IMG/VR virus record: IMGVR_UViG_3300029696_000106
Coordinates: 1-64,000 of that record
Strand: one strand, 5' to 3'
Source: a virus
Taxonomy: Duplodnaviria > Heunggongvirae > Uroviricota > Caudoviricetes
DNA: 64,000 nucleotides
Numbering within the stretch: the stretch's first letter is position 1; each line of letters begins with the position of its first letter. A program made the translations under genes and the position numbers. The notes under the pieces are model-generated. The model made no database searches and was not told the origin of the DNA. It worked only from the letters and a program-made list of their open reading frames with translations. This document shows, piece after piece, positions 32,054 to 59,161 of this stretch.

Positions 32054-32115
32054 AATCATATACCTCTTTATAATAATGTAAGCAGAGCCGAAGCCCTGCA
32101 GTGTGTGTCGGTCAC

Positions 32116-40779: not shown

Positions 40780-41064
40780 TCAGTGTGCGTTCCTGATGCA
40801 CCACTCGATTGCGTGACCGGCATCCGTGTAGGTCTCATCGGAAATCTTCAGAAGTTCCAGCCGGCACTCAATCGGTGACCAGCCTTCCTCCGGGTCTTCC
40901 ACAAAGCCGTAAACTGCTCCTTCCAGCATACCATTCCAGTTCATCTGGGCAACCAGAACCCTGTCACCGAACTGCATGATGCTGTCGTAGCAAGGTCTGA
41001 GTCGGTCGTAGAAGCTCTCGATGCTGATGTTGTTTTCCGGGAAGTCGATCAAATGCTTTTTCAT
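40780..41064 (-). CDS. hypothetical protein
   Basis: GGAGG RBS before MKKHLIDF. Confidence 0.5.
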   Translation of the reverse strand: MKKHLIDFPENNISIESFYDRLRPCYDSIMQFGDRVLVAQMNWNGMLEGAVYGFVEDPEEGWSPIECRLELLKISDETYTDAGHAIEWCIRNAH

Positions 41065-45538: not shown

Positions 45539-45577
45539 TTGAATCTCTCCCTTCGGTTTTCTCCGCTCTTGTCTGGC

Positions 45578-45640
45578 GGTATGGTATATATCACTCTTTT
45601 GCCCTGATTTATCAAGGCCGATGTGCATCATATACTGCAC
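45578..45640 (-). promoter_or_regulatory. promoter cassette, copy 8 (variant)
   Basis: CCTTGATAAATCAGGGCAAAAGAGTGATATATACCATACC. Confidence 0.4.
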
Positions 45641-45668
45641 AATGTTTTTTGCTTTTGATCGTGTACTC

Positions 45669-46190
45669 TTACATCATCTGCCGCTTCTTCAGATACCGGA
45701 CGGCTTCCGTCCTTCCGATACTGGCTGCCAGTCCACGCTTCAGTGTGTCCAGCGGAAATCCCCAGTCGCTGTATCCGCCGTGCAGCAGTTCAAAATACTC
45801 GGCATCCGGGCAGCCAAGCCGCCGGTCCTCGTGCATCACATAAGCGATGCAGGGCTTTGCCTTTTTCATGCGGTTCCCGTTCAGGTTCCAGACCGGAAGC
45901 TGGAACTGCTTCTTGTAGTAGTATCGTGGGCAGCCCTCGTACCGGTCCAGCAGGAGCTCATCGTATTCTGAGAGCTTCCAGACCACTGCTGGTACGCTTT
46001 CATTGGCATCCTGCTCGATGGTGGCATAGCAGCCGGTCTTACTCTTTTTGAACAGGAGCCGGTAGCCCTTGATCTCGGTCGTGCCGACCACCACAGCGTA
46101 AGGGCATCTCTTTCCCATCCGCTCCATGTCGAGGTTGCTTCCGTAGGCAAGGTAATATCTGGATGGGACTCGGCTAATCAGTTCAAACAT
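45669..46190 (-). CDS. gamma-glutamyl cyclotransferase-like protein, paralogue 2
   Basis: YYLAYGSNLDMERMGKRCPYA...YEGCPRYYY. Confidence 0.6.
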   Translation of the reverse strand: MFELISRVPSRYYLAYGSNLDMERMGKRCPYAVVVGTTEIKGYRLLFKKSKTGCYATIEQDANESVPAVVWKLSEYDELLLDRYEGCPRYYYKKQFQLPVWNLNGNRMKKAKPCIAYVMHEDRRLGCPDAEYFELLHGGYSDWGFPLDTLKRGLAASIGRTEAVRYLKKRQMM

Positions 46191-46419
46191 CCGCCTCACC
46201 GTCCTCCCTGCCAGTGAATTCCACACCCTGGAAATCCTCCGTCCCAAGCTCGATCTGGCTGTCCTGCCACCAGTCCTCTGCCACACGCTGGGCTTCCTCC
46301 ACGGTCGGCTCTTTCATTTCGGATTCATAAATGGTCACCGTTCTCTGGTAGGTCTCAGTGATGGTCACCTTAAAGGCCCTGCCTCCCGGTGTGTTTTCAT
46401 TTTTTAACGTGCTTTTCAT
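46183..46419 (-). CDS. hypothetical protein
   Basis: 78 aa. Confidence 0.4.
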   Translation of the reverse strand: MKSTLKNENTPGGRAFKVTITETYQRTVTIYESEMKEPTVEEAQRVAEDWWQDSQIELGTEDFQGVEFTGREDGEADV

Positions 46420-46486
46420 AAACCTGCACCTCCTTCTACCACCTCAAGGGCGGTTGCCCGCCCAAAAGGTGCCCGTGCATCCCGGC

Positions 46487-47425
46487 TTATTTGTTCCGCC
46501 AGGATGCGTTGCCCTCCATGTTCCGCAGAAGGATCTCCCTTGCCGTTGCAAATTCATCCCCGATGAATCCCAGCCTCAGCATCCAGCACCGCATGGCGTA
46601 CTTTTCGTTGTCGGTCTGCTGGGGCTTCGGGCTTGCCGTTCTGACCATCTTAGCAAGCTGGCTCATTGCGAGGCAAAGCTGGATGTAGGCTTTCATCTCA
46701 CCGGCGTGCAGTCCGTTGCGCCTTCCGTCCGCTGGGTCTGCGAATTGGAAAAGGCGGAATTCAATGGTCCCTTTTGTGAAGGTGGCATGGAGGTTCAGCA
46801 TATGGTACCGGCTTGAATTGTAGTGGGCATTCCGGTTTTCCCAGCTGGAACCGTTGCCTTCGTACCAGATGTCTTCCAGCTTGCGCATGGTGGTCGGCTT
46901 CTCGCGGTTCAGCCGGTCGAGGAAGCGGTGGTTGACCACCTGGCAATATTGTCCGGTGCGCCCTGCATCGATCCGGATGGCTCTGCCGATCTGCTGTTCG
47001 TGCGCCGCCATGATGTTCACAAGGTTGCGGATGGTCTTTGCGGTGTGGTCGCCTTTGCCGATGTGGATGTGGACCCCGCATCCGCGGCTTGGGCCGCTCT
47101 TTGCGCCTGCCTTGCGGAGCAGCCGGATGATTTCCTGCAGGGGTTCGATGTCGTCGTAGGTGAGGATCGGGGTGACCAGTTCGCATTTTTCTGCGTCCGG
47201 TCCGTAGATGCTCACATTCCTCTGGAATTTCCAAACCCTGCCCTGCTGGTCCTTGCAAGCCCAGCTGTAATATCCGTACTCGCCAGCGGCGTTCCATGCT
47301 CTGGTTCCGAAGTACTCAGCGACCTTTCTTGCCGCTTTTTCTCTGGTGATGTTGTTCATCTCGATCTCAACTCCGATGGTCTGGTTCTTCATGGCTTCAA
47401 TCTGCTCTCTTGTTTTATCGTTCAT
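46487..47425 (-). CDS. putative amidoligase (GS/GCS2-like, Amidoligase_2 family)
   Basis: IGVEIEMNN...GCGVHIHIG...TIEFRLFQF motifs; start MNDKTREQ after AAAGGAG. Confidence 0.55.
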   Translation of the reverse strand: MNDKTREQIEAMKNQTIGVEIEMNNITREKAARKVAEYFGTRAWNAAGEYGYYSWACKDQQGRVWKFQRNVSIYGPDAEKCELVTPILTYDDIEPLQEIIRLLRKAGAKSGPSRGCGVHIHIGKGDHTAKTIRNLVNIMAAHEQQIGRAIRIDAGRTGQYCQVVNHRFLDRLNREKPTTMRKLEDIWYEGNGSSWENRNAHYNSSRYHMLNLHATFTKGTIEFRLFQFADPADGRRNGLHAGEMKAYIQLCLAMSQLAKMVRTASPKPQQTDNEKYAMRCWMLRLGFIGDEFATAREILLRNMEGNASWRNK

Positions 47426-47451
47426 GGTATGTTCTCCTTTGTTTTTTCCTT

Positions 47452-47522
47452 GTTTTCCCTTTCGGTATGTGCATATTACCGTCAGGTGCACATAATAGCA
47501 AGGCCATAAAAGAACATATATT
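47452..47522 (-). promoter_or_regulatory. promoter-leader cassette, copy 7
   Basis: TTATGGCCTTGCTATTATGTGCACCTGACGGTAATATGCACATACCGAAAGGG. Confidence 0.45.
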
Positions 47523-47657
47523 CGACAAATATCGAGAGGAATGATCGTGTACATTTCTGCGGTTTATCCGCTTGATAATGTACATTTTCAGAGTTAATAT
47601 CGGTACAATGGAAGAGAGGCTCGCATATTTTCCGGCCCCCATTGGGGGCTTGGGAGC

Positions 47658-48785
47658 TTACGCTCCCGCCTCCAGCATCTGCGCCGTGTCTGCCCCACAG
47701 TCGGGCTGTGTCGGCTCGGCATCTGCCGATGCGATCATTTTCCCAGGGGAGGCACTGCCCTCCTGCGCCGCCTGTTTCGCGGCTTTCAGGGCATCACGCT
47801 TTGCCTTTTCCCTTGCAAGGAACTTCTGTGCTTCCTCATCCGTGCGGAAAGCCGCATGGCCGGAAAGGTTCTCCATCAAAATCTTTCTGGTCTGCTTGAA
47901 GTCCGGGCCATTCATGCCAAGGCGCAGAAGCCAAGTTCGCAAAGCGTATTTCTCATTGGAATCGTTCACCTCTTTTGCCTGAATCCGCTTCTGGCTGATA
48001 GCCTGCTGGTTCATCAGAATCGCAAGGTGTCCGAATGCAGTCAGGTGGTCATAATCCGGTGCCATCGGGAAACCTGTAAAGGTAACTTTCTCATCTGTGA
48101 TCGTCAAGCCTTCCAGGGAAGCACCATGCTGTTCTTCATACTCTTTGAGCGCATGAATGAAATTTGCTACCGCATAAGTGCAGCTGTCATCTTTCAAGGC
48201 ATCCACCAGCCCCTTATCGGCAAGGAAAATGCCGTCCGTTGCCTTGCTGACGAGTTCCCCTCTGCTGTAGATCAGATTGACCAGGTTGCGAAGCGATACG
48301 CCGTTATGCTGACTGATCGGGAAAGAAAAATCCGCATCCAGAGGGATTGCTTCCTCTGCCACAGGCTGTTCCCCACCTTCTTCCGATGGGATTTGCTCTG
48401 CACTCTCCATTTCGGATTCCCCATCTTCCTCGGCTTCTTCTGAATCCCCTTCACAGGTCTCCTGCTCATTTGGATCTACTGCCGGAATCATCTGGACACC
48501 CTCGGCAAGGTCTACCGCAGGCTGTTCGTCTGCAGTTTCCTGCAAAGTCTCTGCATCCACATCCTCGCCGCCACGGATCAGGCCTTCATTCATCAGCGTA
48601 GTCAGCAATTCCAGATCTGCATTTTCCGCCTCCACCAGCAGGTTGCCATCCCGGTCAATGGTGTAATTTCCGATGTCATACGCATACCGAGGGGCCTTGG
48701 TGTAGTAAGGATGAATGCCTGTCAGCTCCTCCATCCGCTTTGCCAGTGTTTTGCGCTCCTCTACATTTAGTTCAAACTTCAACAT
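47658..48785 (-). CDS. amidoligase-related paralogue with a divergent N-terminal half and an acidic insert
   Basis: Shares SLRNLVNLIYSRGELV and C-terminal NEKYALRTWLLRLGMNGPDFKQTRKILMENLSGHAAFR with 46487..47425, but lacks the GVEIE motif. Confidence 0.5.
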   Translation of the reverse strand: MLKFELNVEERKTLAKRMEELTGIHPYYTKAPRYAYDIGNYTIDRDGNLLVEAENADLELLTTLMNEGLIRGGEDVDAETLQETADEQPAVDLAEGVQMIPAVDPNEQETCEGDSEEAEEDGESEMESAEQIPSEEGGEQPVAEEAIPLDADFSFPISQHNGVSLRNLVNLIYSRGELVSKATDGIFLADKGLVDALKDDSCTYAVANFIHALKEYEEQHGASLEGLTITDEKVTFTGFPMAPDYDHLTAFGHLAILMNQQAISQKRIQAKEVNDSNEKYALRTWLLRLGMNGPDFKQTRKILMENLSGHAAFRTDEEAQKFLAREKAKRDALKAAKQAAQEGSASPGKMIASADAEPTQPDCGADTAQMLEAGA

Positions 48786-49010: not shown

Positions 49011-51131
49011 TTATTCTTCCAGACCTGCGCACCATGCAATGCCGGCGAGAACAAAGTATACACACGGAAGTGCGACACCGTTGCCCCAGAGCTTGTACTC
49101 TGCTGCATCCGAATACGGATCAGCCAGCCATTTTCGCAGCTGTTTCTCTGTCTTCTGCTTCTTAGCCTGTGTCACGATCCGTCTGTGGGTTTCAAACACA
49201 TCTGCCCAGAAAGTGAGTTCTTCCTCAGTCGGATTTTCTGTTCCAAGGTCTCTGCACCACCAGTCCGGGAAGCCTTGCAGTCTGGCACACTCGGTTGGTG
49301 TCAGGCGGCGGACGGTATAGGTCACTGGCGTGGACTGTACTTCTGGGTTGTCGATGACCAGACGGTCATTGAAAGCATCCTGCCCATTAAAGCCGCTGGG
49401 ATGTGCCCCAGTCGCCACCGTTCCCATAACTCCCTCGTTCAGATGCGGTGCCGGTGCGATGGTGGTCGGGTCTTTGTAATCCCGTGCCATCAAAGTCGGT
49501 GCAACTTCTTTCTCCACCTGCATATAGGAACCAGTTGTCATGGCATACACACTTTCTGGTGCGCAGACTGCATGGCGGTCTGTCGCATCTAAGGTGAAGC
49601 AGACATCCTCATTGACACCATCCCCCTGCGGACCATTCTCATCCTTACGGCCAATCATGTTGCCCTGCAGGACGAAGGTCTGCTGCTTCATCCCTAGCTC
49701 TGCTGCAAGTGCTGCTGACTTCTCTCCCAGATCCCGGACTTCATCCCTCTGATTCTGTGTAAAAGCAACCGGCTCTACTACACAGATGCCGCCCTGGTTA
49801 CAGGTCGGGTCTCCACCACTGCGGTCAAGAGTCCGGGATGTATCTGCTTCATAAAAACCGCTATGCGGATTATCGGACATCATGGAATGACTGGCTTTAG
49901 AGCAGACACCGTAGCATTTCGGAACGAACAGCGTCTGGTCGTTGTTGCAGCCGAGGGTGGCTGACTTTTCTTCCTGCCAGATGGCTCCCTTGCCGCCGCC
50001 CTCACATCCGGAGCGGATCTTCAATGTGACTGCCGGGGAGTTCTCAACATCTTTCACCGGGCTTTCCACCGACTTTTCAACACCATCCATGACCAGTGGA
50101 ACATTGCCGCCACCCGTACCACACCGGCTGGTCAGGGTCTGCACCTTGCCATCCTCGGAAATCTTCACCCGGCTGTCTGCAGGATGGTTTTCCAAAGCAA
50201 TAGCGGCAGGCACAACACCAGCCCGGAGAGTTGGTGACCGTTCCTCTTCATACCCGATGCTTCTTGCGTTGGCAGAGTGTTCCGTGCAGAAACCGGCTGC
50301 TTCCAGAACACACGGAGGATGGTGTGCTTCTGCTCGAAGCGTTGATGTCACTTCCTTTGTCACATCCATTCTCTCCCCATCCTGATCATTCAGGCAGATT
50401 CTTCCTGTGCCGCCTGCCTTTCCAGTGCTGCTTTCAACACAGGTGGCAGCTCTTTGCCACGCACGGAAGCTCTCCGCAGAATACCGAGACACGCCTTCGG
50501 ACTCAAATAATACTTTTGGGGCACTCTGGTCTGCAAAATCTGCGACAAGGAAGATTCGTTTTCTACGCTGGGGCACGCCCCACCACTGTGCATCAAGGAC
50601 TCGATACGCGACACTCCATCCGTCTCCCAAATAGTAGTCAGCATCCGGCCATCCCTTTTTCTCAGGCGCAGGCACCTGGGCAGACGGTTCTTTAACACCG
50701 ATGACGGCTTCGAGGACTGCCTTGAAGTCCTGTCCTTTGTTTGAGGAGAAGGCCCCTGGCACATTCTCCCACACGATAAATCTTGGTTTTTCTCCATTGG
50801 TCTTACACCTCATTTCCTTCACGATTCGGATTGCTTCGTAAAACAGGCTGGACCGTGAACCATCCAGACCGTCCCGCTTACCGGCGATAGACATATCCTG
50901 ACAGGGACTTCCAAAAGTAATGATGTCAACAGGCGGCAAGTCCGCACCGCTGATGGCAGACACATCACCATAGTGCCTCACCCACGGCAGGCGCTTGGTC
51001 GTGACTCGGATGGCAAAGGGCTCCACCTCGCTGCTCCACAGCGGAGTGATCTGCCCGGTCAAAAGTCCACCCAACGGGAAACCCCCGGAACCATCAAAGA
51101 GGCTGCCGAGTGTCAGCTGTTTATTCTCCAT
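49011..51131 (-). CDS. DNA (cytosine-5) methyltransferase with an unusually long variable region (~705 aa)
   Basis: LFDGSGGF (motif I), GSPCQDMS (PC motif), ENVPG (ENV motif), C-terminal GNGVALP. Confidence 0.85.
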   Translation of the reverse strand: MENKQLTLGSLFDGSGGFPLGGLLTGQITPLWSSEVEPFAIRVTTKRLPWVRHYGDVSAISGADLPPVDIITFGSPCQDMSIAGKRDGLDGSRSSLFYEAIRIVKEMRCKTNGEKPRFIVWENVPGAFSSNKGQDFKAVLEAVIGVKEPSAQVPAPEKKGWPDADYYLGDGWSVAYRVLDAQWWGVPQRRKRIFLVADFADQSAPKVLFESEGVSRYSAESFRAWQRAATCVESSTGKAGGTGRICLNDQDGERMDVTKEVTSTLRAEAHHPPCVLEAAGFCTEHSANARSIGYEEERSPTLRAGVVPAAIALENHPADSRVKISEDGKVQTLTSRCGTGGGNVPLVMDGVEKSVESPVKDVENSPAVTLKIRSGCEGGGKGAIWQEEKSATLGCNNDQTLFVPKCYGVCSKASHSMMSDNPHSGFYEADTSRTLDRSGGDPTCNQGGICVVEPVAFTQNQRDEVRDLGEKSAALAAELGMKQQTFVLQGNMIGRKDENGPQGDGVNEDVCFTLDATDRHAVCAPESVYAMTTGSYMQVEKEVAPTLMARDYKDPTTIAPAPHLNEGVMGTVATGAHPSGFNGQDAFNDRLVIDNPEVQSTPVTYTVRRLTPTECARLQGFPDWWCRDLGTENPTEEELTFWADVFETHRRIVTQAKKQKTEKQLRKWLADPYSDAAEYKLWGNGVALPCVYFVLAGIAWCAGLEE

Positions 51132-52392
51132 CGGCATCCTCGCTTTCCGGCTCGAAGGTTGCCACTTCCTCGAACTTCAGCTTCTGACCGTCGCGGATAA
51201 CAAACACATCATCGTAGTGGCCTTCGCTGTGTTCGATGTACCGCTTCACGATAACATCCACGAACTTCGGATCAAGCTCGATGCCCCGACACACACGGTC
51301 CGTTTCCTCACAGGCGATCAATGTCGAGCCGCTACCAAGGAACGGATCGAGGACGATGCCGTTGGTCATAGTTGAGTTGCGGATTGGATAGCTCATCAGG
51401 CCGATGGGCTTCATGGTCGGATGATCCTTGTTGGACTTCGGCCGGTCATACTCCCAGATGGTCGTCTGCTTTCGGTCGGAATACCACTGGTGCTTCCCCT
51501 TCTGCTTCCAACCGTAAAGACACGGTTCGTGCTGCCACTGGTAAGGACTGCGCCCCAGCACCAGAGCATTCTTCTTCCAAATACAGCACCCAGACAGGTA
51601 GAACCCGGCATCCTTGAATGCCTTTCTAAAGTTCAGCCCTTCCGTATCTGCATGGAAGATGTAGATGGAGCCGTCATCCGCCAGATGACCGTGCATCTGC
51701 TGGAACGCTGCCAGAAGGAACTGGTAGAATTCCGAATCGCCCATGTTGTCATTCATGATCTTACCGGCCGTTTCTTCCACATCCACATTGTAAGGAGGAT
51801 CGGAAAGAACCAGATTTGCCTTGGTACCTTCCATCAGGGTATCGTAGCATTCTGCCTTAGTGGAATCGCCGCACAGAACGATGTGCTTTCCCAGATGCCA
51901 GAGGTCGCCCTCTTTGGAGAAGCACGGCTGCTTCAGCTCGGATTCCACATCGAAGTCATCTTCCTTGACCTCTTTGCTGTGGACCTTGTTGAACAGCGTC
52001 TCGATCTCAGGCGGGTCAAAGCCTGTCTTGCCGAGGTCGAAGTTGGAATCTTCGATGTCCTTGAGCAGGTCAGCCAGCAGAGAATCATCCCATGCACCCG
52101 TAATCTTGTTAAGTGCGATGTTCAGAGCTTTTTCTCTGGTCTTGTCGATGTCCACCACCGCACAAGGCACTTCTGTGTATCCCAGTTCCATTGCAACAGT
52201 CAGTCTCTGATGGCCGCCGATGATCGTCATGTCGGCATTGACCACCAAAGGATCTGCGAAGCCGAACTCCGTGATGGAGTTCTTGATTTTCTCGTACTCT
52301 TTATCCCCCGGCTTCAACTTTTTCCGGGGATTGTATGCAGCCGGCTTGAGTACGGACACCGGCAGCATCTTTAGTTCAGCAGTCGCTTTCAT
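51121..52392 (-). CDS. ParB-like nuclease domain fused to an N6A/N4C amino-methyltransferase (beta class)
   Basis: N-terminal ParB fold, then SDPPYNV and later DPFLGSGST. Confidence 0.8.
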   Translation of the reverse strand: MKATAELKMLPVSVLKPAAYNPRKKLKPGDKEYEKIKNSITEFGFADPLVVNADMTIIGGHQRLTVAMELGYTEVPCAVVDIDKTREKALNIALNKITGAWDDSLLADLLKDIEDSNFDLGKTGFDPPEIETLFNKVHSKEVKEDDFDVESELKQPCFSKEGDLWHLGKHIVLCGDSTKAECYDTLMEGTKANLVLSDPPYNVDVEETAGKIMNDNMGDSEFYQFLLAAFQQMHGHLADDGSIYIFHADTEGLNFRKAFKDAGFYLSGCCIWKKNALVLGRSPYQWQHEPCLYGWKQKGKHQWYSDRKQTTIWEYDRPKSNKDHPTMKPIGLMSYPIRNSTMTNGIVLDPFLGSGSTLIACEETDRVCRGIELDPKFVDVIVKRYIEHSEGHYDDVFVIRDGQKLKFEEVATFEPESEDADGE

Positions 52393-52413
52393 GTAAGCCC
52401 TCCCGTTTTAGAT

Positions 52414-52641
52414 TCACATGCGTATGACCCCGGAGAACGGCACGAAAAAGGAGCCGAACAAAAAGCCCGACTCCATTTCACTACCATCTTCTTCTGGCTG
52501 CGGTTTCTCTGCCATCTCGCACCATTCCGGGTTTTCCCCGTTCACAGATGCCAGGACCTTATCTTCCGCAAAGTCGATTGCATGTACACAAATACCCCCG
52601 GTGTTGAACAACGGGTACACACCGATCACCTTTTCACTCAT
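52414..52641 (-). CDS. hypothetical protein
   Basis: GGAGG RBS; 75 aa. Confidence 0.4.
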   Translation of the reverse strand: MSEKVIGVYPLFNTGGICVHAIDFAEDKVLASVNGENPEWCEMAEKPQPEEDGSEMESGFLFGSFFVPFSGVIRM

Positions 52642-53137
52642 GCTCCTTCGCCTCCTTCATTCCATATCGAAATTCAAAATAACAATTTCTGCTGCAGAAC
52701 ATCCGCTGACTCCTGCTTTCGCAGATTGCCGTAAACGGACGGCCACAGTTCTGACAGAATGCTACCCTGCCAGCCTTTTCCCGTTTATAATTCCTTCGTT
52801 CATATTCGGCATAGCATTCATCCGAACAATATTTTCTCGGTGCACCTCTTCCACTCTGCCCGATGATTCTTCCACAGACTGGACATCTGCGTTCTTTCAT
52901 TCGGCCCGGCGGCACCAGATGGCAGCTTCCCATTTCCGGCAATCCCAGTTCCCGGCAGTAATCCATCACCTGTTCCACAGGCATTCCCGTCTGCTCTGCG
53001 ATCTGAGAAAGTTTCGTTCCAGAAAGCCGCAGCGTCCTCACCTGCTCCCTGGCCGCATCAAACGCCATTCCTTCAAAAACACAATCCATACGGATGCCAT
53101 TTCTTCTGACATCCCGTTCAATACTCAATGGCTGCAT
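52634..53137 (-). CDS. HTH plus double zinc-ribbon protein
   Basis: LSQIAEQTGMPVEQVMDYCRELGL is a HTH; two CPVCG/CQNCG...YCS/FCS..C repeats. Confidence 0.45.
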   Translation of the reverse strand: MQPLSIERDVRRNGIRMDCVFEGMAFDAAREQVRTLRLSGTKLSQIAEQTGMPVEQVMDYCRELGLPEMGSCHLVPPGRMKERRCPVCGRIIGQSGRGAPRKYCSDECYAEYERRNYKREKAGRVAFCQNCGRPFTAICESRSQRMFCSRNCYFEFRYGMKEAKEHE

Positions 53138-53426
53138 CTTTTGCCTCCTTTCCTCTGCCCCGGTTGGCACAAGCCCGACTGCAATATTTCCGTTCCAACC
53201 CGTACTGGTGCCGGTAGGAAAACTCCCTACCACACACCGGGCAAATCTTGGAGCGTACCGTTTTCCAGTTCTCCGGCTTCGGATGGGTGTTGTTCCATCG
53301 TGACCGGCATTCCGGTGAGCAGAACTTCCGGGGTCTGCCTTTGTGGTTTGGTATGATTGCCGTGCCGCACTGAGGACAGAACGAAAACGCCATGTCCTTG
53401 ATCATCTCAGCCGTGTAGTCTTCCAT
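53118..53426 (-). CDS. double zinc-ribbon protein, paralogous to the C-terminus of 52634..53137
   Basis: CPQCG...RPRKFCSPEC and CPVCGREF...RKYCSRAC. Confidence 0.45.
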   Translation of the reverse strand: MEDYTAEMIKDMAFSFCPQCGTAIIPNHKGRPRKFCSPECRSRWNNTHPKPENWKTVRSKICPVCGREFSYRHQYGLERKYCSRACANRGRGKEAKDAAIEY

Positions 53427-53826
53427 CTGCCCTCACCTCACTCTCATTTTTCGCCGTTTCTTCGGCGGTTTCTTAGAAAAATCTCATAATTCATACGAAA
53501 AGCGGCGAAGTGGAAATCGGCACCGCCCCGCCAGGTTGGTTTGTTATTGCAGCGGCCGATTCCCGCTCGCCCTCGCTCCTCCCGGAACAAGCTAAAATGT
53601 GCGAAAGTTCCCTGTTTACGAGAGGTTTCACACACTTTGGTTCATTTCGGGGAAAAAGAATGGCACCGGAACCGAAGCTCCGATGCCTGTACATTTTCCT
53701 GTTTCATTTTGCGCCGTTAATCCTCTGACCCCCGGCCTATCAATTTTGCGGTTTTTCACAGAAAAGGGCGCACCGGTCTCCGTGTGACTTCACCGTAGAG
53801 AAGCGACCCCGGCCCCGGTGGGGGTG

Positions 53827-54186
53827 TCAGTAGGTGTAGGTCGGGTTGATGTCCTCAGTCAACGTCTTCTGATCGTGGCAGCTCTTGCAGAGCGACTGCC
53901 AGTTATTCTGGTCCCAAAAAAGTTTCTGGTCACCACGGTGCGGAATGATGTGATCCACCACCGTTGCCCGGACGTACTTGCCCTGCTTGGCGCACTGCAC
54001 ACATAACGGATGTGCTTCGAGATACGACTTCCTGGCTTTCTGCCAACGTCTGTTGTATCCACGCTTACCCGCTGGGCGTGTAACTTCCGGGTGAAGAGAC
54101 AGGTGCTTCTCACAGTAGAGCCGGTCGGGTTCCACCAGCTCAGGGCAGCCGGGGTGATGGCACGGTGTCTTTGGTCTGTACGGCAT
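53827..54186 (-). CDS. HNH endonuclease
   Basis: CVQCAKQGK...VDHIIPHRGDQKLFWDQNNWQSLCKSCHDQKT. Confidence 0.8.
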   Translation of the reverse strand: MPYRPKTPCHHPGCPELVEPDRLYCEKHLSLHPEVTRPAGKRGYNRRWQKARKSYLEAHPLCVQCAKQGKYVRATVVDHIIPHRGDQKLFWDQNNWQSLCKSCHDQKTLTEDINPTYTY

Positions 54187-54189
54187 GGG

Positions 54190-55257
54190 TCAGTCCTCCC
54201 ACGGAAGACCAGCCTTGCCGAAGTGACCGTAAGCACTGACCTTGTTGTAGTCTACGTCCAGCAGGCCCAGCCGCTTGATGATACCCTGTGGGGTCAGGTC
54301 ATAGCTGTCATGAACATAGGCTTCAATGAAGTCGAGGGACTGGTGCTCCGTACCGAAGCACTCCACAGCCACACCCACCGGCTGTACCACACCGATGGCG
54401 TAAGCCAGCTGGACTTCGCACTTGTCAGCGTAGCCCGCCTGCACGATGTCCTTGGCAATCTTCCTCGCCATGTATGCTGCAGAGCGGTCTACCTTGGTCG
54501 GGTCTTTGCCGCTCAGAGCACCGCCGCCCATGCGGCCGATACCGCCGTAGGTGTCGCACGCCAGCTTCCGGCCAGTCACACCACAGTCGGCGTAGCTGCC
54601 GCCCAGCACGAAACGGCCGGTCGGGTTGACCAGCTTCGTGAAGTCACCGTCCAGACCATACTCGCAGGCGGCCAGCACCATCATGGATTCGATGATGTGC
54701 CGGAAGTCGCTGACCTCCACATCCGGGCTGTGCTGCACAGAGCAGAGGAACGTAGTGATTCGGCCGGTGTCGTAATCGTAGCTGACCTGTGCCTTGGCAT
54801 CTGCCCGGAACATCTTGGACGGATGGTTCTTCAACAGCTGCAGAAACTTGGTAGCGACCATGTAGGGAATCGGCATCTGCTCTGCCGTCTCGTTGGTGGC
54901 ATAGCCATACATGATTCCCTGGTCACCGGCACCGCCCTTGTCCACACCCAGTGCAATATCTGGCGACTGCTTGTCCACCAGAATGCCGATGCGAAGAAGC
55001 TCAGTCAGGTTCCACCCCAGCTTTTCGGCACCGATGCGGTTGAACACATCGTGGACAATCTGGTGGTAGTTTGGCTGGTAATCGGTAGTAACTTCGCCTG
55101 CAATAAAAAGCTGGCTCTTTTTCAGCAGACACTCAATCGCCACACGGGCGTGCTTGTCATGCTGAAGGATGTCGATCACAATGGCATCTGCGATCTGGTC
55201 ACAGATTTTGTCGGGATGGCCGTTGCTGACCTGTTCACAAGTGATGATCTTACTCAT
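54190..55257 (-). CDS. metK: S-adenosylmethionine synthetase
   Basis: GHPDKICDQIADAI, GAGDQGIMYGYA, DTYGG and GKDPTKVDRSAAY signatures; aligns along its whole length with bacterial MetK. Confidence 0.9.
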   Translation of the reverse strand: MSKIITCEQVSNGHPDKICDQIADAIVIDILQHDKHARVAIECLLKKSQLFIAGEVTTDYQPNYHQIVHDVFNRIGAEKLGWNLTELLRIGILVDKQSPDIALGVDKGGAGDQGIMYGYATNETAEQMPIPYMVATKFLQLLKNHPSKMFRADAKAQVSYDYDTGRITTFLCSVQHSPDVEVSDFRHIIESMMVLAACEYGLDGDFTKLVNPTGRFVLGGSYADCGVTGRKLACDTYGGIGRMGGGALSGKDPTKVDRSAAYMARKIAKDIVQAGYADKCEVQLAYAIGVVQPVGVAVECFGTEHQSLDFIEAYVHDSYDLTPQGIIKRLGLLDVDYNKVSAYGHFGKAGLPWED

Positions 55258-55672
55258 TGGTTTTTTCCTCCATTTCCGTCCAGCCAAGCACTTTATTCCC
55301 ACAAGAGCAGGTGTAGTAAAGTGTGCTTAGATCGTATTCCTCCATATACGGGTGCATCTTCTTATTGCACTTCGGACAATGTCGGACAGGAATCACAGAG
55401 CCCCGCATATCAATGCCACCGTCACAGGAAAGGTCAAAAGGATAAATCTCTGTTCGTCCTTCTCCATCTTCCGTCAGTACCAAACAATAGGGTCTTGAAA
55501 CCTCATTGCATTCCCGCATGACCACATTGTCATCATCATCCACATCGACTGCCATGACCGTAGTTCCAATCGGCAACGGCATCATCTGCTTGATGCTGAG
55601 ATTTTCATATCCAGCCGTATTCCTCCCAAGCCAGTGCATCCCCATATTTTTGTTCACAGTCTTTTCCATCAT
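55250..55672 (-). CDS. zinc-ribbon protein (hypothetical)
   Basis: CPKCNKK...CSCGNK. Confidence 0.4.
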   Translation of the reverse strand: MMEKTVNKNMGMHWLGRNTAGYENLSIKQMMPLPIGTTVMAVDVDDDDNVVMRECNEVSRPYCLVLTEDGEGRTEIYPFDLSCDGGIDMRGSVIPVRHCPKCNKKMHPYMEEYDLSTLYYTCSCGNKVLGWTEMEEKTNE

Positions 55673-55789
55673 GTTTTCCCCTCTTTCATGTAATATCAAA
55701 GCAGGTACCCTTTGCTCTGGCTCCGCCCTGTCATTTCCCACAAAGCAAGCCCTCGCAAAAGATACCCACAAAGATTCGTGTCTGTTCTC

Positions 55790-56135
55790 GTTTTTTCTAC
55801 CCTGTAGATGTTGTAGATGCTGATTTTGGTTTTTCTTATACGAGATTTATATTTTTTATTTAACCTTTTTATCTTCTACATCATCTACAAGAAGGAACAA
55901 AAGCAATAAAGAAGTACAGAAAACCGCTTAAAAACGTGCTTTCTGCATTTCACGCACCTCAATTTTTGTAGAAGCTCTGTAGAAGCAAAATTCGGTCATT
56001 TTGCATCGAAAAGGCAATTTTGTTCTTTTCCGAATGTCGGCAGCACTTAAAAATCAGGGTTCCACATCTACAAAATATCAAATCTGTAGGTGCTTTTCCC
56101 CATTTTGTAGATGCTCTGATGTGAGCATCATCTAC
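55790..56135. repeat. iteron-like array of TGTAGA(T/A)G / CATCTACA motifs in both orientations
   Basis: About 10 copies in ~350 nt of AT-rich intergenic DNA next to the primase-helicase gene, including the near-palindrome TGTAGATGCTCTGATGTGAGCATCATCTACA. Confidence 0.45.
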
Positions 56136-56138
56136 AGC

Positions 56139-58595
56139 TTAGGTTTCAGAAAATTCGGTGACCTGTGTCTTCTGGATCAACCTCTCGATGTGTTCCGGAG
56201 CAGAATCAGACAGAACGTCTGTATCCTCTTCTTCCTCCTGTGCCCAAGCACAATCATTCAGAAAAGTAGTTGCATTGCCTTTTTCTTTCCACGGTCTGCG
56301 CACCTCGTAAACATACCTCTGCTCCATCTCCTTTTTGAAGTTTGGCTGGCTCAGAGCTTTGATGTTGTTTGCTTCGCACCACCGCTTGTAGATATCGAAC
56401 ACCGCTACACTACGCAGTTCTTCTCCTTTGGCATGACGCAGACAGAGACTGGCAAACTGACCGACTTTGTCGGACTCCAACTCATAATCTGCCGTGGCCT
56501 CCTTGACTGCCTGCGGCATTTCCAATCCTTCTTTGAGGAACAGCTTGAAGCCCTCATACACCCAATTGAAAATGCCCGCCATATTTTCCGGCTCTGCAAA
56601 CTGAGCCTTCAAGCCTCGATCCTGCTCGTTTTCCTTAAAATGCCGATTGAAAGGAATCATTTTCACGCGGCCAGAGTGGAACAAGGTCAGATCCGTAATG
56701 TTGGGCCGGTAGTTCGTGTTAATGAAGATTTTGAATCCAGCACGGAACTCGAAGCTGTTCTCGTGCAGATATCGGGCAGTGATCGTGTCATTGCCAGTCA
56801 ATCGCTTAGTAAGTGCTGCATCAATGGTCAGCTTCTTCTCCGGCTCAGAGATATTGACAAAACGGGAACCGGCAAGACGCGCCAGTTCCTCGGTAGGTCC
56901 ATTGCTCTGCGCATTGAATTTCATGGCAAGCAGCACTGGGTCAGCATTTCTGCCGTAATCGCCCATAAGCCGCAGAAAAGATTCCATCAGCGTACCTTTG
57001 CCATTTCGGGAAGTAGCACCGTACAGGATAAAGAAACATTCCATCCGGGTATCACCGGACAGCGCATAACCCAGAGCTTTCTGTGTGTACCGGATAGTAT
57101 CCTTATCCCCCATCATGACTTCATCCATGAACTTGATAAATCGGTCGCATTTGGCATCCGGATCATATTCTACCGGAGACACCTTTGTGAGAAAGTCCTC
57201 CGGTCTGTGTTCCCGGAACTCACCAGTTCGCAGGTCGAGCGTACCATTTGCCATGTTAAAAAGATAAATGTCACGGTCAAAATTCTTCATCGCCAGCGGA
57301 AATACAGACTTCGCATCCTTGATCATGGTGTCACGGTTTCTGCGAAGCTGAAGTTTCCTTACACGGTCAATAAAACGCTTTCGGGCATCTTCCTCCGTGA
57401 TCGTCAAAGCAAATACATACAGCTTGTCCGCCAGCAGCTTTGCCAGTTCTGCCACTCGCAAATTTTCAGCGTCTGCTCTCCAGACAGAACCATCATAGAC
57501 ATACCAGATACCTCGCTCACTGTTGTATCTGGCAATAGGCTTAAAGTAGTCAGCGAAGGCGTTACCCATGCCGATTTCTTCTCTGCCATATCGTGGGTTT
57601 GAGTGCGGAGCCATCTCCTCCAAGGTCAGAGTGATCTTGGAAATGTCCGGCTGATATTCTTCATCCTCATCCAGCTTGGAAAATTCCTCATCCACAATGT
57701 CCTGCGCATTGACCGGCATATAGACAGCCGAACAGGTATTGACGGTATTGCGGATGGAAATCGCACCGTAGGTCGAACCAGCCTGCTTGCGATCCCACTT
57801 ATCACGCATCAAGCCCGATGTACGGAAGATGCGGTCCATCTGCTCCTCATCGCAGCCACACCAGAATGCCAAAATGGACAGTAACGCCATATCTGCATCC
57901 GACTGGCTGCCGTAGAGATCTTCCCAGTCACCGGCAAAGAGTTTTTTGAACTTTTCCGAATTGCTGGCTTCATTGGCGTGTGCGATGACAGCCTCATCAT
58001 CCAGATACGAATGGTGCTGGAAATGGGTCTGCTGCACCTGCTTGTTTCGCTTCATCAGCGTATCCAGCAGTGTTGTCATTGCCGTTTCATCGTTCGGGAT
58101 CTCACCTGTGCGGTAAACATCTCCCGTTACGGTGACGAAGCGGTTCGTCGCACCGGGCATATACACTTCCAGACCTTTGCTACGGTTATTGATGTAGTAG
58201 ACTGTCTTGTCGTAGACGTAGTCTTCCGGCACACAGAAGAAACCTCGCAGTCCTTTCCCGGATGGAGATTTTTCCACGTAAGCCGTAGGAAAGATGGAAA
58301 GGACAGTATCCGCTGTATCGTTCAGTGTACCATCCTCCCGGATACAGTGGTCGATATCAAAAGCACCGATGCCGTTTCCGACTGCGATGCCGATTCCGTC
58401 ATAACCGCCCATCGCATAGGTAACGAGGGTATTCTTGAAATCTGAAAATGTACGCAGGTCATTGATCTTTGCCCGTTCTCCCGTTGCCGGGTTAAACGGC
58501 ATCTTGGTCTTCTGTCCATTGCGCTTTTCAAACTTCCAGACACAGAAGCTGCAGGTCGTTTTCAGCTTGCCCGGAATGTTCTTGATGTCCATCAT
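56139..58595 (-). CDS. bifunctional prim-pol / SF3 helicase (phage-plasmid primase, D5/P4 family)
   Basis: N-terminal prim-pol region (GIGIAVGNGIGAFDIDH), Walker A ILYGATSRNGKGTL, D5_N-like region. Confidence 0.85.
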   Translation of the reverse strand: MMDIKNIPGKLKTTCSFCVWKFEKRNGQKTKMPFNPATGERAKINDLRTFSDFKNTLVTYAMGGYDGIGIAVGNGIGAFDIDHCIREDGTLNDTADTVLSIFPTAYVEKSPSGKGLRGFFCVPEDYVYDKTVYYINNRSKGLEVYMPGATNRFVTVTGDVYRTGEIPNDETAMTTLLDTLMKRNKQVQQTHFQHHSYLDDEAVIAHANEASNSEKFKKLFAGDWEDLYGSQSDADMALLSILAFWCGCDEEQMDRIFRTSGLMRDKWDRKQAGSTYGAISIRNTVNTCSAVYMPVNAQDIVDEEFSKLDEDEEYQPDISKITLTLEEMAPHSNPRYGREEIGMGNAFADYFKPIARYNSERGIWYVYDGSVWRADAENLRVAELAKLLADKLYVFALTITEEDARKRFIDRVRKLQLRRNRDTMIKDAKSVFPLAMKNFDRDIYLFNMANGTLDLRTGEFREHRPEDFLTKVSPVEYDPDAKCDRFIKFMDEVMMGDKDTIRYTQKALGYALSGDTRMECFFILYGATSRNGKGTLMESFLRLMGDYGRNADPVLLAMKFNAQSNGPTEELARLAGSRFVNISEPEKKLTIDAALTKRLTGNDTITARYLHENSFEFRAGFKIFINTNYRPNITDLTLFHSGRVKMIPFNRHFKENEQDRGLKAQFAEPENMAGIFNWVYEGFKLFLKEGLEMPQAVKEATADYELESDKVGQFASLCLRHAKGEELRSVAVFDIYKRWCEANNIKALSQPNFKKEMEQRYVYEVRRPWKEKGNATTFLNDCAWAQEEEEDTDVLSDSAPEHIERLIQKTQVTEFSET

Positions 58596-59161
58596 GCCTG
58601 TGCCTCCCTTCCCGTACAAGCCTGCATCGCAAACTGCTTCTTAACAGCAGCTTCGATCTCCTGCTTTTTCTTGGCCGAAGTCACACGGCAGAGCCGATTG
58701 CACAGAACCATCTTGTCAATAGTCGTGATCTGCTCCACCAGCAGAATGGATTCTTCCAGACACTCATCCCGGAGCATTTCGCAGTCTCTCCCGGTGACCG
58801 GAATGTGTACCGGCAGCTCCAGCTTCTTCAGCTTGGAACTCATCGGGATCACCGTGATGATCGGAGAATTGCGGTTTGCCATATCGTTGCTGATGACCAG
58901 CACCGGGCGGTTTCCGCTCTGCACCGAAGTACCATAATGATTCCCCAGTTCTGCAAACCAGATCTCATACTGCTTCGGTATCTTTTGTACCGGCCACTGA
59001 TCAGCTATCATCTCGTGAAACTGAGGTTCTTTCGATGTCAGCTTACAGGATGCCTCTGATCTGCGGTGCGGCTTCGTTTTTCCACGCTGGTTGATGTATT
59101 TATTGACATGGATCTTGCGGCCGCGCTCTACCGGCCGGGCATTACTTTTCTTTCGTCCCAT
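58592..59161 (-). CDS. MazF/PemK (EndoA-like) endoribonuclease-fold protein with a ~50-aa basic N-terminal extension
   Basis: MIADQ...IWFAELGNHYGTSVQSGNRPVLVISNDMANRNSPIITVIPMSSKLKKLELPVHIPV closely follows B. subtilis EndoA; a strong GGAGGT RBS sits only at the upstream ATG. Confidence 0.65.
   Translation of the reverse strand: MGRKKSNARPVERGRKIHVNKYINQRGKTKPHRRSEASCKLTSKEPQFHEMIADQWPVQKIPKQYEIWFAELGNHYGTSVQSGNRPVLVISNDMANRNSPIITVIPMSSKLKKLELPVHIPVTGRDCEMLRDECLEESILLVEQITTIDKMVLCNRLCRVTSAKKKQEIEAAVKKQFAMQACTGREAQA

What the first reader, a model, noticed from the sequence alone, without database searches (positions are those of the whole stretch)
49011..55302. Phage-encoded SAM synthetase (metK) next to two DNA methyltransferases and an HNH nuclease
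54190..55257 is a full-length, apparently intact MetK. It lies a few genes downstream of a ParB-fused beta-class amino-MTase and an unusually long (~705 aa) C5-MTase whose extended variable region suggests multiple target-recognition domains. Phage-borne metK is uncommon. It could supply SAM for rapid self-methylation against host restriction-modification, or counter host SAM-depletion strategies. Together with the acidic DNA-mimic-like proteins, DUF4314 and DUF3846, this forms an extended anti-restriction island.
Basis: partly seen in the sequence, partly recalled or inferred. Interest (0 to 1): 0.6.

Follow-up and report, generated by a model that had tools for sequence, protein, structure and literature searches.

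The report
Phage SAM synthetase beside DNA methyltransferases
A common human-gut phage carries its own intact enzyme for making the methyl donor SAM, free of the host's feedback switch and next to two DNA-methylating enzymes; this gene module and its proposed role were already published for related phages, so it is a real but largely known feature.

Summary
Window 49011-55302 (minus strand) encodes, in transcription order, an intact MetK (54190-55257), a small HNH nuclease, three small proteins, a ParB-fused beta-class amino-methyltransferase and a 708-aa C5-cytosine methyltransferase. All lie inside a siphovirus-type (pro)phage of gut Clostridia.

It is not new. The same MetK-HNH-ParB-MTase-C5-MTase order is in Streptococcus phage phi1207.3, where MetK was proposed in 2014 to supply the methyl donor. 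In Ca. Heliusvirales gut phages, SAM synthetase is reported in 58.9% of genomes. The window's TerL ties it to both groups.

What I add:
- Viral MetK forms clades separate from cellular MetK.
- It is under purifying selection (dN/dS 0.03-0.18).
- It lacks the SAM-I riboswitch found upstream of all 8 cellular Bacillota metK loci tested (0 of 14 viral loci).
- Its constant neighbours are the ParB-MTase and the HNH (39 of 41 viral loci each). The C5-MTase is less constant (29 of 41).
- The HNH is of the packaging type, not an anti-restriction nuclease.
- The "DNA-mimic" protein is amidoligase-related.
- The C5-MTase has about four times M.HhaI's variable region, with 9 TL-anchored modules. Multispecificity is plausible but unproven.

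Verdict: new member of a known kind, modest interest.

The parts
55250..55771 (-). ORF of 139-173 aa (start uncertain) with a C-terminal CxxC...CxC zinc-ribbon-like motif; function unknown
   Evidence: No Pfam, PHROG or NCBIfam hit. Its stop overlaps the MetK start (ATGAGTAA), which suggests translational coupling. Public gene calls give 139-163 aa.
54190..55257 (-). MetK, methionine adenosyltransferase (SAM synthetase), short viral type, 355 aa
   Evidence: Domains and scores. PHROG 1569, E 3e-133. Catalytic motifs GHPDK13, E42, E55, KQSPDI96, GAGDQG109, DAKAQ153, NPTGRF211, ADCGVTGRK223, DTYGG235 and GGGALSGKDPTKVDRS244 are all kept. dN/dS 0.03-0.18. No SAM riboswitch upstream.
53827..54186 (-). 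HNH endonuclease, 119 aa, two CxxC zinc sites, packaging-associated type
   Evidence: Pfam HNH, E 8e-10. PHROG 144, E 2.7e-37. Best solved structure is the phage GVE2 HNH, 5h0m, E 2.5e-14. Its ATG lies 3 nt after the MetK stop.
53662..53687 (-). Terminator-like GC-rich hairpin (11 pairs) followed by a T-run, inside the 400-nt non-coding gap 53427-53826
   Evidence: This is a consensus match only. It may separate a MetK-HNH transcription unit from the methyltransferase unit.
53118..53426 (-). Zinc-ribbon protein, 102 aa (two CxxC...RK[FY]CSxxC units)
   Evidence: PHROG 2308, E 3e-17; only weak Pfam zinc-ribbon hits. Conserved at this position in relatives.
52634..53137 (-). Protein of about 167 aa with a helix-turn-helix-like segment and zinc-ribbon units; function unknown, possibly a regulator
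   Evidence: PHROG 2308, E 6e-22. Public gene calls give 167 aa. The longest ORF runs to 53233.
52414..52641 (-). Small acidic protein, 75 aa, pI 4.2; function unknown
   Evidence: No family hit. Charge. Conserved just upstream of the ParB-MTase in relatives.
51121..52392 (-). ParB_N-fused beta-class N6-adenine/N4-cytosine DNA methyltransferase, 423 aa
   Evidence: Pfam ParB_N (residues 6-89) and N6_N4_Mtase (193-382). PHROG 498, E 8e-188. GGHQR59, DPPY198 and FLGSG351. Best solved structure is H. pylori DpnA-like adenine MTase 5hek.
49011..51137 (-). C5-cytosine DNA methyltransferase, 708 aa, with a variable region of about 410 aa (residues about 195-609) holding 9 TL-anchored modules
   Evidence: Its start overlaps the ParB-MTase stop by 17 nt. 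A 100%-identical protein is on 46 contigs, and a 91%-identical one is named from Blautia obeum.

Best explanation
The region is the methylation module of a temperate siphovirus of gut Clostridia. By TerL it belongs to or sits close to Ca. Heliusvirales, and it also groups with the Streptococcus phi1207.3/Javan prophages.

MetK is an active SAM synthetase of a viral clade. It sits in a co-directional run of phage genes between the replication genes and the methyltransferase and packaging genes. Unlike the host's metK it has no SAM-I riboswitch, so its expression should not be shut off when SAM rises.

During lytic growth it would raise or sustain the SAM pool. This would let the two phage methyltransferases modify many newly replicated genomes before packaging, and so protect progeny DNA from restriction in the next host. 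One of these is a ParB-fused amino-MTase. The other is a C5-MTase that probably recognises several target sequences.

MetK is an optional booster, not a required part, because related phages keep the HNH and both methyltransferases without it. The HNH is most likely part of the cos/terminase packaging machinery.

Shown here: gene identities, intact motifs, purifying selection, absence of the riboswitch, conserved linkage. Inferred: enzyme activity, timing of expression, SAM limitation, the protective effect.
For: 1. MetK is intact and under selection.
2. It is tightly packed with its neighbours. Its start overlaps the stop of the upstream ORF. The HNH start lies 3 nt after its stop. The ParB-MTase and C5-MTase genes overlap by 17 nt.
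3. The same gene order is kept in relatives whose MetK is 57-99% identical to the window's, in Lachnospiraceae and Oscillospiraceae phages and in Streptococcus phages.
4. Of 41 IMG/VR loci with at least 7 kb on both sides, 39 carry a ParB-N6_N4 MTase, 39 an HNH and 29 a C5-MTase within 10 kb.
5. Viral MetK clades other than the window's have the ParB-MTase in other positions: directly upstream in L157, L164 and L165, and directly downstream in L169-L172. This argues for functional linkage rather than inherited gene order alone.
6. Background rates are low. Full-length ParB-MTase homologues occur in 308 of 50,697 phage records and in 0 of 70 cellular metK loci.
7. A SAM-I riboswitch (RF00162) lies 100-300 nt upstream of metK in 8 of 8 cellular Bacillota loci. 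It is absent from all 14 viral loci tested. By hand, Fisher's exact P is about 3e-6, ignoring relatedness.
8. GC3 of metK (0.73) matches that of the capsid gene (0.73). No promoter-like site lies in front of metK. Both fit a lytic-operon gene rather than a moron.
9. The same role was proposed for phi1207.3 orf29 (PMC4260502). Co-occurrence of metK with dcm on viral genomes is reported (10.1101/2021.01.05.425418).
10. My estimate from general knowledge: the window holds 31,372 A and 32,628 C counting both strands. Broad-specificity methylation of about 100 progeny genomes would then need roughly 10^5-10^6 methyl groups. That is comparable to or above a bacterial SAM pool of about 10^5 molecules.
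Against: - No experiment shows activity, timing of expression or SAM limitation.
- Relatives without MetK keep both methyltransferases, so MetK is dispensable for methylation.
- Much of the co-occurrence may reflect shared ancestry, because most loci belong to one broad phage lineage.
- A terminator-like hairpin lies between the MetK-HNH pair and the methyltransferase genes, so they may not form one transcript.
- The only genetic study of a homologous prophage metK reported a host aggregation and biofilm phenotype, with inconsistent complementation. It did not report a methylation phenotype (PMC8223999).
- The methyltransferase specificities are unknown, so the size of the SAM demand is a guess.
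Confidence: 0.6

Rival explanations
1. MetK is an auxiliary metabolic or lysogenic-conversion gene. Expressed from the prophage, it changes host methionine/SAM metabolism (methylation, polyamines, quorum signals, organosulfur flux) to the benefit of the lysogen, and is not mainly for phage DNA methylation.
For: - Viral metK is classed as an organosulfur AMG, with conserved residues and dN/dS below 1 (10.1101/2021.01.05.425418).
- Deleting the prophage metK region in S. agalactiae changed aggregation, glycocalyx and biofilm. Plasmid-borne metK partly restored these traits (PMC8223999).
- The phage is temperate: it has three serine recombinases and a 97%-identical copy integrated in Clostridium fessum.
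Against: - The gene sits inside a co-directional lytic gene run. It overlaps its neighbours, has no promoter-like site of its own, and has neighbour-like GC3.
- This reading does not explain the near-constant ParB-MTase and HNH neighbours across different arrangements.
- Complementation in the S. agalactiae study was inconsistent and confounded by secondary mutations.
Confidence: 0.15
2. MetK is a counter-measure against SAM loss. It would restore SAM when the host, a resident prophage or a co-infecting phage destroys SAM or blocks the host MetK, as T3-type SAM lyases do.
For: - A divergent viral MetK clade (44-50% identical to cellular enzymes) could escape inhibitors aimed at the host enzyme.
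- T3 SAMase is reported both to cleave SAM and to inhibit its synthesis by host MetK (10.1101/2023.02.27.530186).
- The absence of the riboswitch also fits an emergency supply.
Against: - The literature searches turned up no host SAM-depletion defence.
- No SAM-lyase-like gene or other sign of such a conflict was found among the ORFs I annotated in the window. Not every ORF was scanned.
- The idea is not needed to explain the linkage to methyltransferases.
Confidence: 0.08
3. MetK feeds another SAM-consuming phage process encoded nearby. Candidates are an uncharacterised DNA or protein modification involving the Nmad4 protein or the amidoligase/GGACT cluster.
For: - An Nmad4 (nucleotide-modification-associated) domain protein lies next to TerS.
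- An amidoligase, two GGACT proteins and a DpnD/PcfM protein follow the methyltransferases here and in relatives.
Against: - None of these families is known to use SAM (my knowledge; not checked here).
- No radical-SAM or other SAM-dependent enzyme apart from the two methyltransferases was found among the ORFs scanned.
- The Streptococcus loci examined show no amidoligase homologue yet keep MetK with the methyltransferases.
Confidence: 0.07
4. The metK gene is a host gene at or near a prophage border, or a non-functional remnant.
For: Some MetK hits in the phage database are of this kind. The Helicobacter records carry host metK beside the prophage integration site (PMC11321410). One hit is a Salmonella genome contig.
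Against: - Phage genes flank it on both sides for tens of kilobases.
- The same position is kept in complete phage genomes and in IMG/VR contigs.
- It belongs to a clade distinct from cellular MetK and lacks the riboswitch.
- Purifying selection is strong.
Confidence: 0.01

Closest known systems
Streptococcus pyogenes phage phi1207.3, orf29-orf33 (SAM synthetase, HNH, orf31, ParB-DNA methylase, C5 methylase), and the related Javan / S. agalactiae group-A prophages
   Same: - Same order: primase, SNF2 helicase, MetK, HNH, small ORF, ParB-N6_N4 MTase, C5-MTase, TerS, TerL, portal, ClpP.
- MetK is 56-58% identical to the window's and shares the short-type indels.
- TerL is 74-76% identical.
- MetK was already proposed to provide the methyl donor for the methylase (PMC4260502).
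   Different: - The Streptococcus C5-MTases are 388-417 aa with a variable region of about 200 aa, against 708 aa and about 415 aa here.
- No amidoligase homologue was found in those loci.
- The hosts are in a different class (Bacilli versus Clostridia).
Ca. Heliusvirales gut phages (de Jonge et al., Nat Commun 2024)
   Same: - TerL is 77-83% identical to NatCom members.
- Same module, including the long C5-MTase, amidoligase and GGACT.
- SAM synthetase is reported in 58.9% and dcm in 67% of genomes.
- Human-gut origin: the exact MetK protein occurs in 147 sample blocks.
   Different: - I did not test all nine marker genes of the order.
- The window shows a D5-type primase-helicase, whereas the Evtepia phage region has a DNA polymerase and a separate helicase.
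- The published work lists the genes as auxiliary metabolic genes, with no analysis of mechanism.
Multispecific C5-MTases of Bacillus phages (M.SPRI, M.Phi3TI, M.Rho11sI, M.H2I) and M.BssHII
   Same: One catalytic core with an enlarged variable region between motifs VIII and IX, which in those enzymes holds several tandem target-recognition domains of about 40-50 aa, each with a T-L/V/I signature (my knowledge of the Trautner-laboratory literature). Here there are 9 TL anchors, mostly 23-37 residues apart, and whole modules are present or absent among relatives.
   Different: - No detectable sequence similarity to Bacillus phage enzymes.
- The variable region is roughly twice as long.
- No methylation data exist.
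- The structure prediction failed.
Phage ParB-fused N6_N4 methyltransferases, and the non-specific prophage adenine MTases Hia5, Hin1523 and M.EcoGII
   Same: - The ParB_N + N6_N4 fusion is enriched in phages and prophages and is thought to act in anti-defence (PMC12704722).
- Beta-class motif order.
- Prophage-borne orphan methyltransferases that protect DNA broadly (PMC3299994, PMC7544214).
   Different: - Specificity here is unknown.
- I could not show that Hia5 or M.EcoGII carry a ParB domain; neither paper mentions ParB.
- The best solved-structure match is a sequence-specific H. pylori DpnA-like enzyme.
Phage T3 SAM lyase (SAMase)
   Same: A phage enzyme that manipulates the host SAM pool in the conflict with SAM-dependent restriction and BREX systems (10.1101/2023.02.27.530186).
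   Different: The strategy is the opposite. T3 destroys SAM and blocks host MetK to disable defence. This phage makes SAM, presumably to methylate itself.

Membership tests
Methionine adenosyltransferase (MetK, TIGR01034; Pfam PF00438/PF02772/PF02773) | Three-domain architecture covering the whole protein | tested here: met
   All three domains match end to end. The alignment to E. coli MetK covers residues 4-354.
Methionine adenosyltransferase (MetK, TIGR01034; Pfam PF00438/PF02772/PF02773) | Score above the curated equivalog cut-off | tested here: met
   393.3 bits against a cut-off of 309.4.
Methionine adenosyltransferase (MetK, TIGR01034; Pfam PF00438/PF02772/PF02773) | Conserved substrate- and metal-binding motifs (GHPDK, E42, E55, QSPDI, GAGDQG, DAK, TGRK, SGKD, KVDRS) | tested here: met
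   All are present. The only notable change is F to L in GGGA(F/L)SGKD, which is shared with close relatives.
Methionine adenosyltransferase (MetK, TIGR01034; Pfam PF00438/PF02772/PF02773) | Makes SAM from ATP and methionine | not testable with these tools
   Needs an enzyme assay or genetic complementation.
Short viral-type MetK clade (PHROG 1569) | Length 344-360 aa, shared deletions before the DAK motif and in the following hairpin, and a C-terminus ending at PWE | tested here: met
   Alignment, neighbour-joining tree, PHROG 1569 at E 3e-133. The clade is not purely viral: Oribacterium parvum has a chromosomal copy controlled by a riboswitch.
Short viral-type MetK clade (PHROG 1569) | No SAM-I riboswitch upstream (my working criterion for the viral copies) | tested here: met
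   0 of 14 viral loci against 8 of 8 cellular loci.
C5-cytosine DNA methyltransferase (PF00145) | Motifs I (FxGxG), IV (PCQ), VI (ENV), VIII (QxRxR), IX and X (GNG) in canonical order | tested here: met
   Found at residues 14, 78, 124, 190, 610 and 685.
Multispecific C5-MTase (Bacillus phage SPR/phi3T type) | Several tandem target-recognition domains between motifs VIII and IX | tested here: inconclusive
   - 408 aa between the landmarks, against 99 aa in M.HhaI.
- 9 TL dipeptides against 1.56 +/- 1.18 in shuffles, 0 of 20,000 shuffles reaching 9.
- Weak internal similarity, top score 45 against 32 +/- 3 in shuffles.
- Whole modules gained or lost among relatives.
- The structure prediction was unusable, pLDDT 29.
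Multispecific C5-MTase (Bacillus phage SPR/phi3T type) | Sequence relatedness to the characterised Bacillus phage enzymes | tested here: not met
   tblastn with the variable region against 50,697 phage records found no Bacillus phage hit at E up to 1e-3.
Multispecific C5-MTase (Bacillus phage SPR/phi3T type) | Methylates several unrelated target sequences | not testable with these tools
   Needs methylome sequencing.
ParB-fused beta-class amino-MTase | N-terminal ParB/Srx fold plus an N6_N4 MTase domain with motif IV (DPPY) before motif I (FxGxG) | tested here: met
   Pfam domains. GGHQR59, DPPY198 and FLGSG351.
Packaging-associated phage HNH (HK97 gp74 / GVE2 type) | Small HNH with two CxxC zinc sites and similarity to known members | tested here: met
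   CVQC62, CKSC100 and the H79...N95...H104 signature. Match to 5h0m at E 2.5e-14. PHROG 144.
Packaging-associated phage HNH (HK97 gp74 / GVE2 type) | Gene lies next to the terminase genes or the cos site | tested here: inconclusive
   Here it is 13.6 kb from TerS, with the methyltransferases and cargo genes between. In NatCom_6392 it directly follows TerL. The cos site is unknown.
Ca. Heliusvirales | TerL homology to the order's TerL | tested here: met
   76.8% identical to NatCom_42228 and 83% over the part of the Evtepia phage TerL held in L001.
Ca. Heliusvirales | Presence of the nine marker genes | not tested
   The window ends at 64 kb, probably before the end of the phage. I saw TerL, portal, Clp protease, capsid and helicase-type genes but did not check the marker list.
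Anti-restriction DNA mimics (Ocr / ArdA type) | Recognisable Ocr/ArdA family membership, or a small, uniformly acidic protein | tested here: not met
   The 375-aa protein at 47658-48785 has a net charge of -39. It has no Pfam hit, and PHROG 2443 "amidoligase enzyme" matches its residues 2-340 at E 4.5e-37.

The most novel reading that the evidence does not exclude
The trio MetK, ParB-fused amino-MTase and HNH, together with the C5-MTase of about 9 modules, forms a broad-spectrum methylation machine that supplies its own SAM and works in step with packaging.

- MetK, free of riboswitch control, floods the cell with SAM.
- The ParB domain loads the amino-MTase onto replicating or packaging DNA.
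- The C5 enzyme methylates many more target sequences than the five or so known for any single multispecific enzyme.

The result would be progeny protected against a wide range of restriction systems. That could help explain why this lineage is among the most widespread in the human gut.
Probability: 0.22. Interest if true: 0.6.

Novelty: new member of a known kind. Interest (0 to 1): 0.35.

Why it matters
This phage lineage is reported in most human guts: Heliusvirales TerL genes were found in 82% of 5,441 individuals (PMC11283538). Its methylation module may help set which bacteria it can move between.

If the SAM-supply model holds, it is the mirror image of the T3 SAM-destroying strategy. 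It would also be a clear case of a phage escaping host metabolite feedback by dropping a riboswitch.

The long C5-methyltransferases, up to 802 aa in relatives, could be a source of enzymes with many specificities. As it stands, the gene module and the hypothesis are already in the literature, so the finding mainly confirms and sharpens known biology.

Tried and rejected
1. AlphaFold2 model of the C5-MTase from a 24-sequence alignment. Mean pLDDT was 29 and pTM 0.23, so the model was unusable and I ran no fold search.
2. Similarity of the variable region to the multispecific Bacillus phage MTases. None was found.
3. An inserted mobile element with a hidden out-of-frame HNH gene, as in the "ShiLan domain" of actinophage methylases (PMC11855218). 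The only sizeable same-strand overlapping ORF (50390-50797) lies over the catalytic N-terminal part rather than the variable region. Pfam finds no extra domain.
4. A SAM riboswitch or other known RNA element in the window. There were no hits at gathering thresholds. The permissive scan of 53300-56300 gave only a chance-level greA-leader match, E 0.29.
5. A host origin for metK. Rejected on context and phylogeny.
6. Reading the acidic protein as a DNA mimic. Rejected, as it is amidoligase-related.
7. Sigma-70-type promoter scan of 47.5-59.5 kb. It found no more sites than in shuffled sequence (9 against 9.0 +/- 3.4), so it says nothing about transcription starts.
8. Counts of GATC, GGCC, CCGG, GCGC and similar motifs. 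These do not reveal the methyltransferase specificities.

Full report
**1. What is there**

All genes in the window run on the minus strand. The window is a siphovirus-type temperate phage:
- three serine recombinases (2900-9644) and an endolysin (9824-11317);
- a tail protein, a 1,984-aa tape measure (23034-28988) and an HK97-type capsid (34166-35371);
- ClpP protease, portal, TerL (37970-39595) and P27-type TerS (39595-40230);
- a cargo and early region with an Nmad4 protein, DUF3846, DUF4314, two GGACT proteins, DpnD/PcfM, an amidoligase, the module under study, a D5/NrS-1-type primase-helicase, a PemK toxin and an SNF2 helicase.

In transcription order the module reads:
- an ORF of 139-173 aa (55250-55771);
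- MetK (54190-55257);
- HNH (53827-54186);
- a 400-nt gap containing a terminator-like hairpin (53662-53687);
- three small proteins (53426-52414);
- the ParB-fused N6_N4 methyltransferase (51121-52392);
- the C5 methyltransferase (49011-51137).

The genes are tightly packed. The MetK ATG overlaps the upstream stop codon (ATGAGTAA) and follows a GGAGGA site. The HNH ATG lies 3 nt after the MetK stop. The two methyltransferase genes overlap by 17 nt.

**2. MetK is intact, phage-borne and of a distinct clade**

- It has the three MetK domains end to end and passes the TIGR01034 equivalog cut-off, 393 against 309 bits.
- It aligns to E. coli MetK structures at E 2.8e-92.
- It keeps every substrate- and metal-binding motif.
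- dN/dS against relatives whose MetK is 61-97.5% identical is 0.03-0.18.
- Its GC3 (0.73) equals that of the capsid gene.

In an alignment and neighbour-joining tree, the window protein groups with MetKs of Heliusvirales phages and Streptococcus prophages and with IMG/VR sequences.
- Members of this group are 54-62% identical to each other and 344-360 aa long.
- They share deletions and end at PWE.
- Cellular MetKs from many phyla are 57-68% identical to the E. coli enzyme but only 44-50% identical to the viral type.

A scan of one genome per species showed the same gap. The short type lies at 53-97% identity, and then the longer cellular enzymes begin at 49% or below. The best genomic match (97%) is a prophage in Clostridium fessum SNUG30386. 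The exact protein occurs in 147 sample blocks of human-gut metagenomes. The C5-MTase is 91% identical to a Blautia obeum protein. The host is therefore probably a Lachnospiraceae bacterium.

**3. The module and the idea are already known**

- Streptococcus phage phi1207.3 has the same gene order. [quoted passage not shown] They also listed orf30 as an HNH and orf32 as ParB plus DNA methylase (PMC4260502).
- The window's TerL is about 76% identical to TerL of the metK-carrying Streptococcus Javan prophages and of Heliusvirales phage NatCom_42228.
- For Ca. Heliusvirales, SAM synthetase (K00789) is reported in 58.9% of genomes and dcm in 67% (PMC11283538).
- Kieft et al. described viral metK as a conserved auxiliary gene. 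They reported that it forms clades apart from bacteria and co-occurs with dcm.
- ParB-N6_N4 MTase fusions are reported as enriched in phages and prophages (PMC12704722).
- PHROGs already holds the family as phrog_1569, labelled "unknown function".

**4. What the comparison adds**

(a) Linkage.
- Among 80 IMG/VR loci encoding MetK relatives, 41 have at least 7 kb on both sides. Of these, 39 carry a ParB-N6_N4 MTase, 39 an HNH and 29 a C5-MTase within 10 kb.
- Further viral MetK clades sit directly after the ParB-MTase (L157, L164, L165) or directly before it (L169-L172).
- Full-length ParB-MTase homologues occur in only 308 of 50,697 phage records and in none of 70 cellular metK loci.
- The constant partner is therefore the ParB-MTase, with the HNH. 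The C5 enzyme that earlier authors named is less constant.

(b) Dispensability. Heliusvirales phages NatCom_991, NatCom_11393 and NatCom_28274 have HNH, ParB-MTase and the long C5-MTase with no MetK. NatCom_2329 likewise has both methyltransferases and no MetK. MetK is an add-on.

(c) Regulation.
- All seven cellular Bacillota metK loci tested carry a SAM-I riboswitch 100-300 nt upstream.
- None of 14 viral loci does, the window included.
- The library search found no paper that links this riboswitch to phage metK.

(d) Origin. Oribacterium parvum has a short-type MetK in an ordinary chromosomal setting (TrkAH, PGK) with a SAM riboswitch. A Clostridia MAG has one in a polysaccharide gene cluster. 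The short type is therefore not confined to phages, and the direction of transfer is open.

**5. The C5 methyltransferase**

- Between motif VIII and motif IX it has 408 aa, where M.HhaI has 99.
- This region holds 9 TL dipeptides, against 1.56 +/- 1.18 in shuffles; 0 of 20,000 shuffles reached 9. Most are 23-37 residues apart.
- Internal similarity is weak but above shuffled controls.
- Relatives range from 601 to 802 aa. The modules keep the same order and are 53-97% identical. Individual modules are missing or added in some relatives.
- This is what a tandem array of target-recognition domains would look like, as in the multispecific Bacillus phage enzymes.
- However, there is no sequence similarity to those enzymes, the structure prediction failed, and no methylation data exist.

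I rate multispecificity as likely but unproven.

**6. The other claims**

- The HNH matches the GVE2 phage HNH and the PHROG families of small phage HNH proteins. Such proteins are known parts of cos-type packaging machines next to terminase genes (PMC5304195, PMC3592412). In NatCom_6392 it directly follows TerL.
- The acidic 375-aa protein (net charge -39) is amidoligase-related.
- Nothing here tests whether DUF3846 and DUF4314 have an anti-restriction role.
- I found no evidence for a host SAM-depletion defence.

**7. Most likely mechanism (confidence about 0.6)**

During lytic growth the phage expresses a feedback-free SAM synthetase. This keeps SAM available and SAH relatively low while the two methyltransferases modify many new genomes before packaging.

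The window has 31,372 adenines and 32,628 cytosines counting both strands. With broad specificities and about 100 progeny, demand could reach 10^5-10^6 methyl groups. That is comparable to a typical bacterial SAM pool (my estimate from general knowledge).

Rival readings are lysogenic conversion (0.15), countering SAM destruction (0.08), feeding another modification pathway (0.07) and a host gene (0.01).

**8. Verdict**

It is a new member of a known kind. The riboswitch loss, the tight ParB-MTase/HNH linkage and the very long C5 variable region are useful refinements that make the hypothesis testable.

Noticed in passing
window 40780-41064 (-): A 94-aa protein with an Nmad4 domain (nucleotide-modification-associated domain 4, Pfam E 5.9e-20) lies just upstream of TerS. 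It hints at a further DNA-modification function in this phage.
   Followed up: no
window 45059-48785 (-): A cluster follows the methyltransferases, in order: an acidic amidoligase-like protein, Amidoligase_2, DpnD/PcfM and two GGACT (gamma-glutamyl cyclotransferase-like) proteins. Amidoligase and GGACT genes follow the methyltransferases in most Clostridia-phage relatives examined. No amidoligase homologue was found in the Streptococcus loci. Function unknown.
   Followed up: partly
L011 9787-11056 (Oribacterium parvum ACB1): A short, viral-type MetK sits in a housekeeping context (TrkH/TrkA, phosphoglycerate kinase) with a SAM-I riboswitch upstream. This clade therefore also serves as a cellular metK, so either it was the donor or the host gene was replaced by a phage one.
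   Followed up: partly
window 2900-9644 (-): Three large serine recombinases in tandem (765, 663 and 809 aa) near one end of the phage.
   Followed up: no
window 58592-59161 (-): A PemK/MazF-like toxin domain with an N-terminal extension of about 60 aa. Its gene overlaps the start of the primase-helicase gene. No antitoxin was evident. A PemK gene sits just before the primase-helicase in the closer relatives (L002-L007), and a MazF-like gene lies upstream of metK in the Evtepia phage.
   Followed up: no
L002/L003 4274-6060 and 11083-12557: In an 80%-identical relative, defence or toxin-type genes (AbiEii upstream of PemK; SymE toxin after HNH) and a Fusobacteriales-1 RNA motif (RF02920, 93 bits, L002 11650-11767) are inserted around MetK and HNH. 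This part of the genome is a hot spot for cargo insertion.
   Followed up: no
L091 3350-7218 (Christensenellales phage NatCom_6392): Here the long C5-MTase (601 aa) lies between the portal and head-protease genes, and the HNH directly follows TerL. This unusual placement ties both to the packaging module.
   Followed up: no
window 53427-53826: A 400-nt non-coding gap after the HNH contains a strong terminator-like hairpin (53662-53687). A similar gap is present in relatives. It could hold a late promoter or even the cos site.
   Followed up: partly
proteins P0001, P0002, P0013: Some metagenome gene calls fuse MetK with other domains: HNH + MetK (476 aa), TerL_nuclease + MetK (429 aa), and a 599-aa form. 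These may be real fusions, frameshifts or gene-calling artefacts.
   Followed up: no
INPHARED hits: Several "phage" records with MetK hits are not phage genes. The Helicobacter prophage records include the host metK at the integration site, and one record is a Salmonella genome contig.
   Followed up: yes
window 31226-32197 (-): An SPFH/Band-7 family protein is encoded within the structural-gene region of the phage.
   Followed up: no
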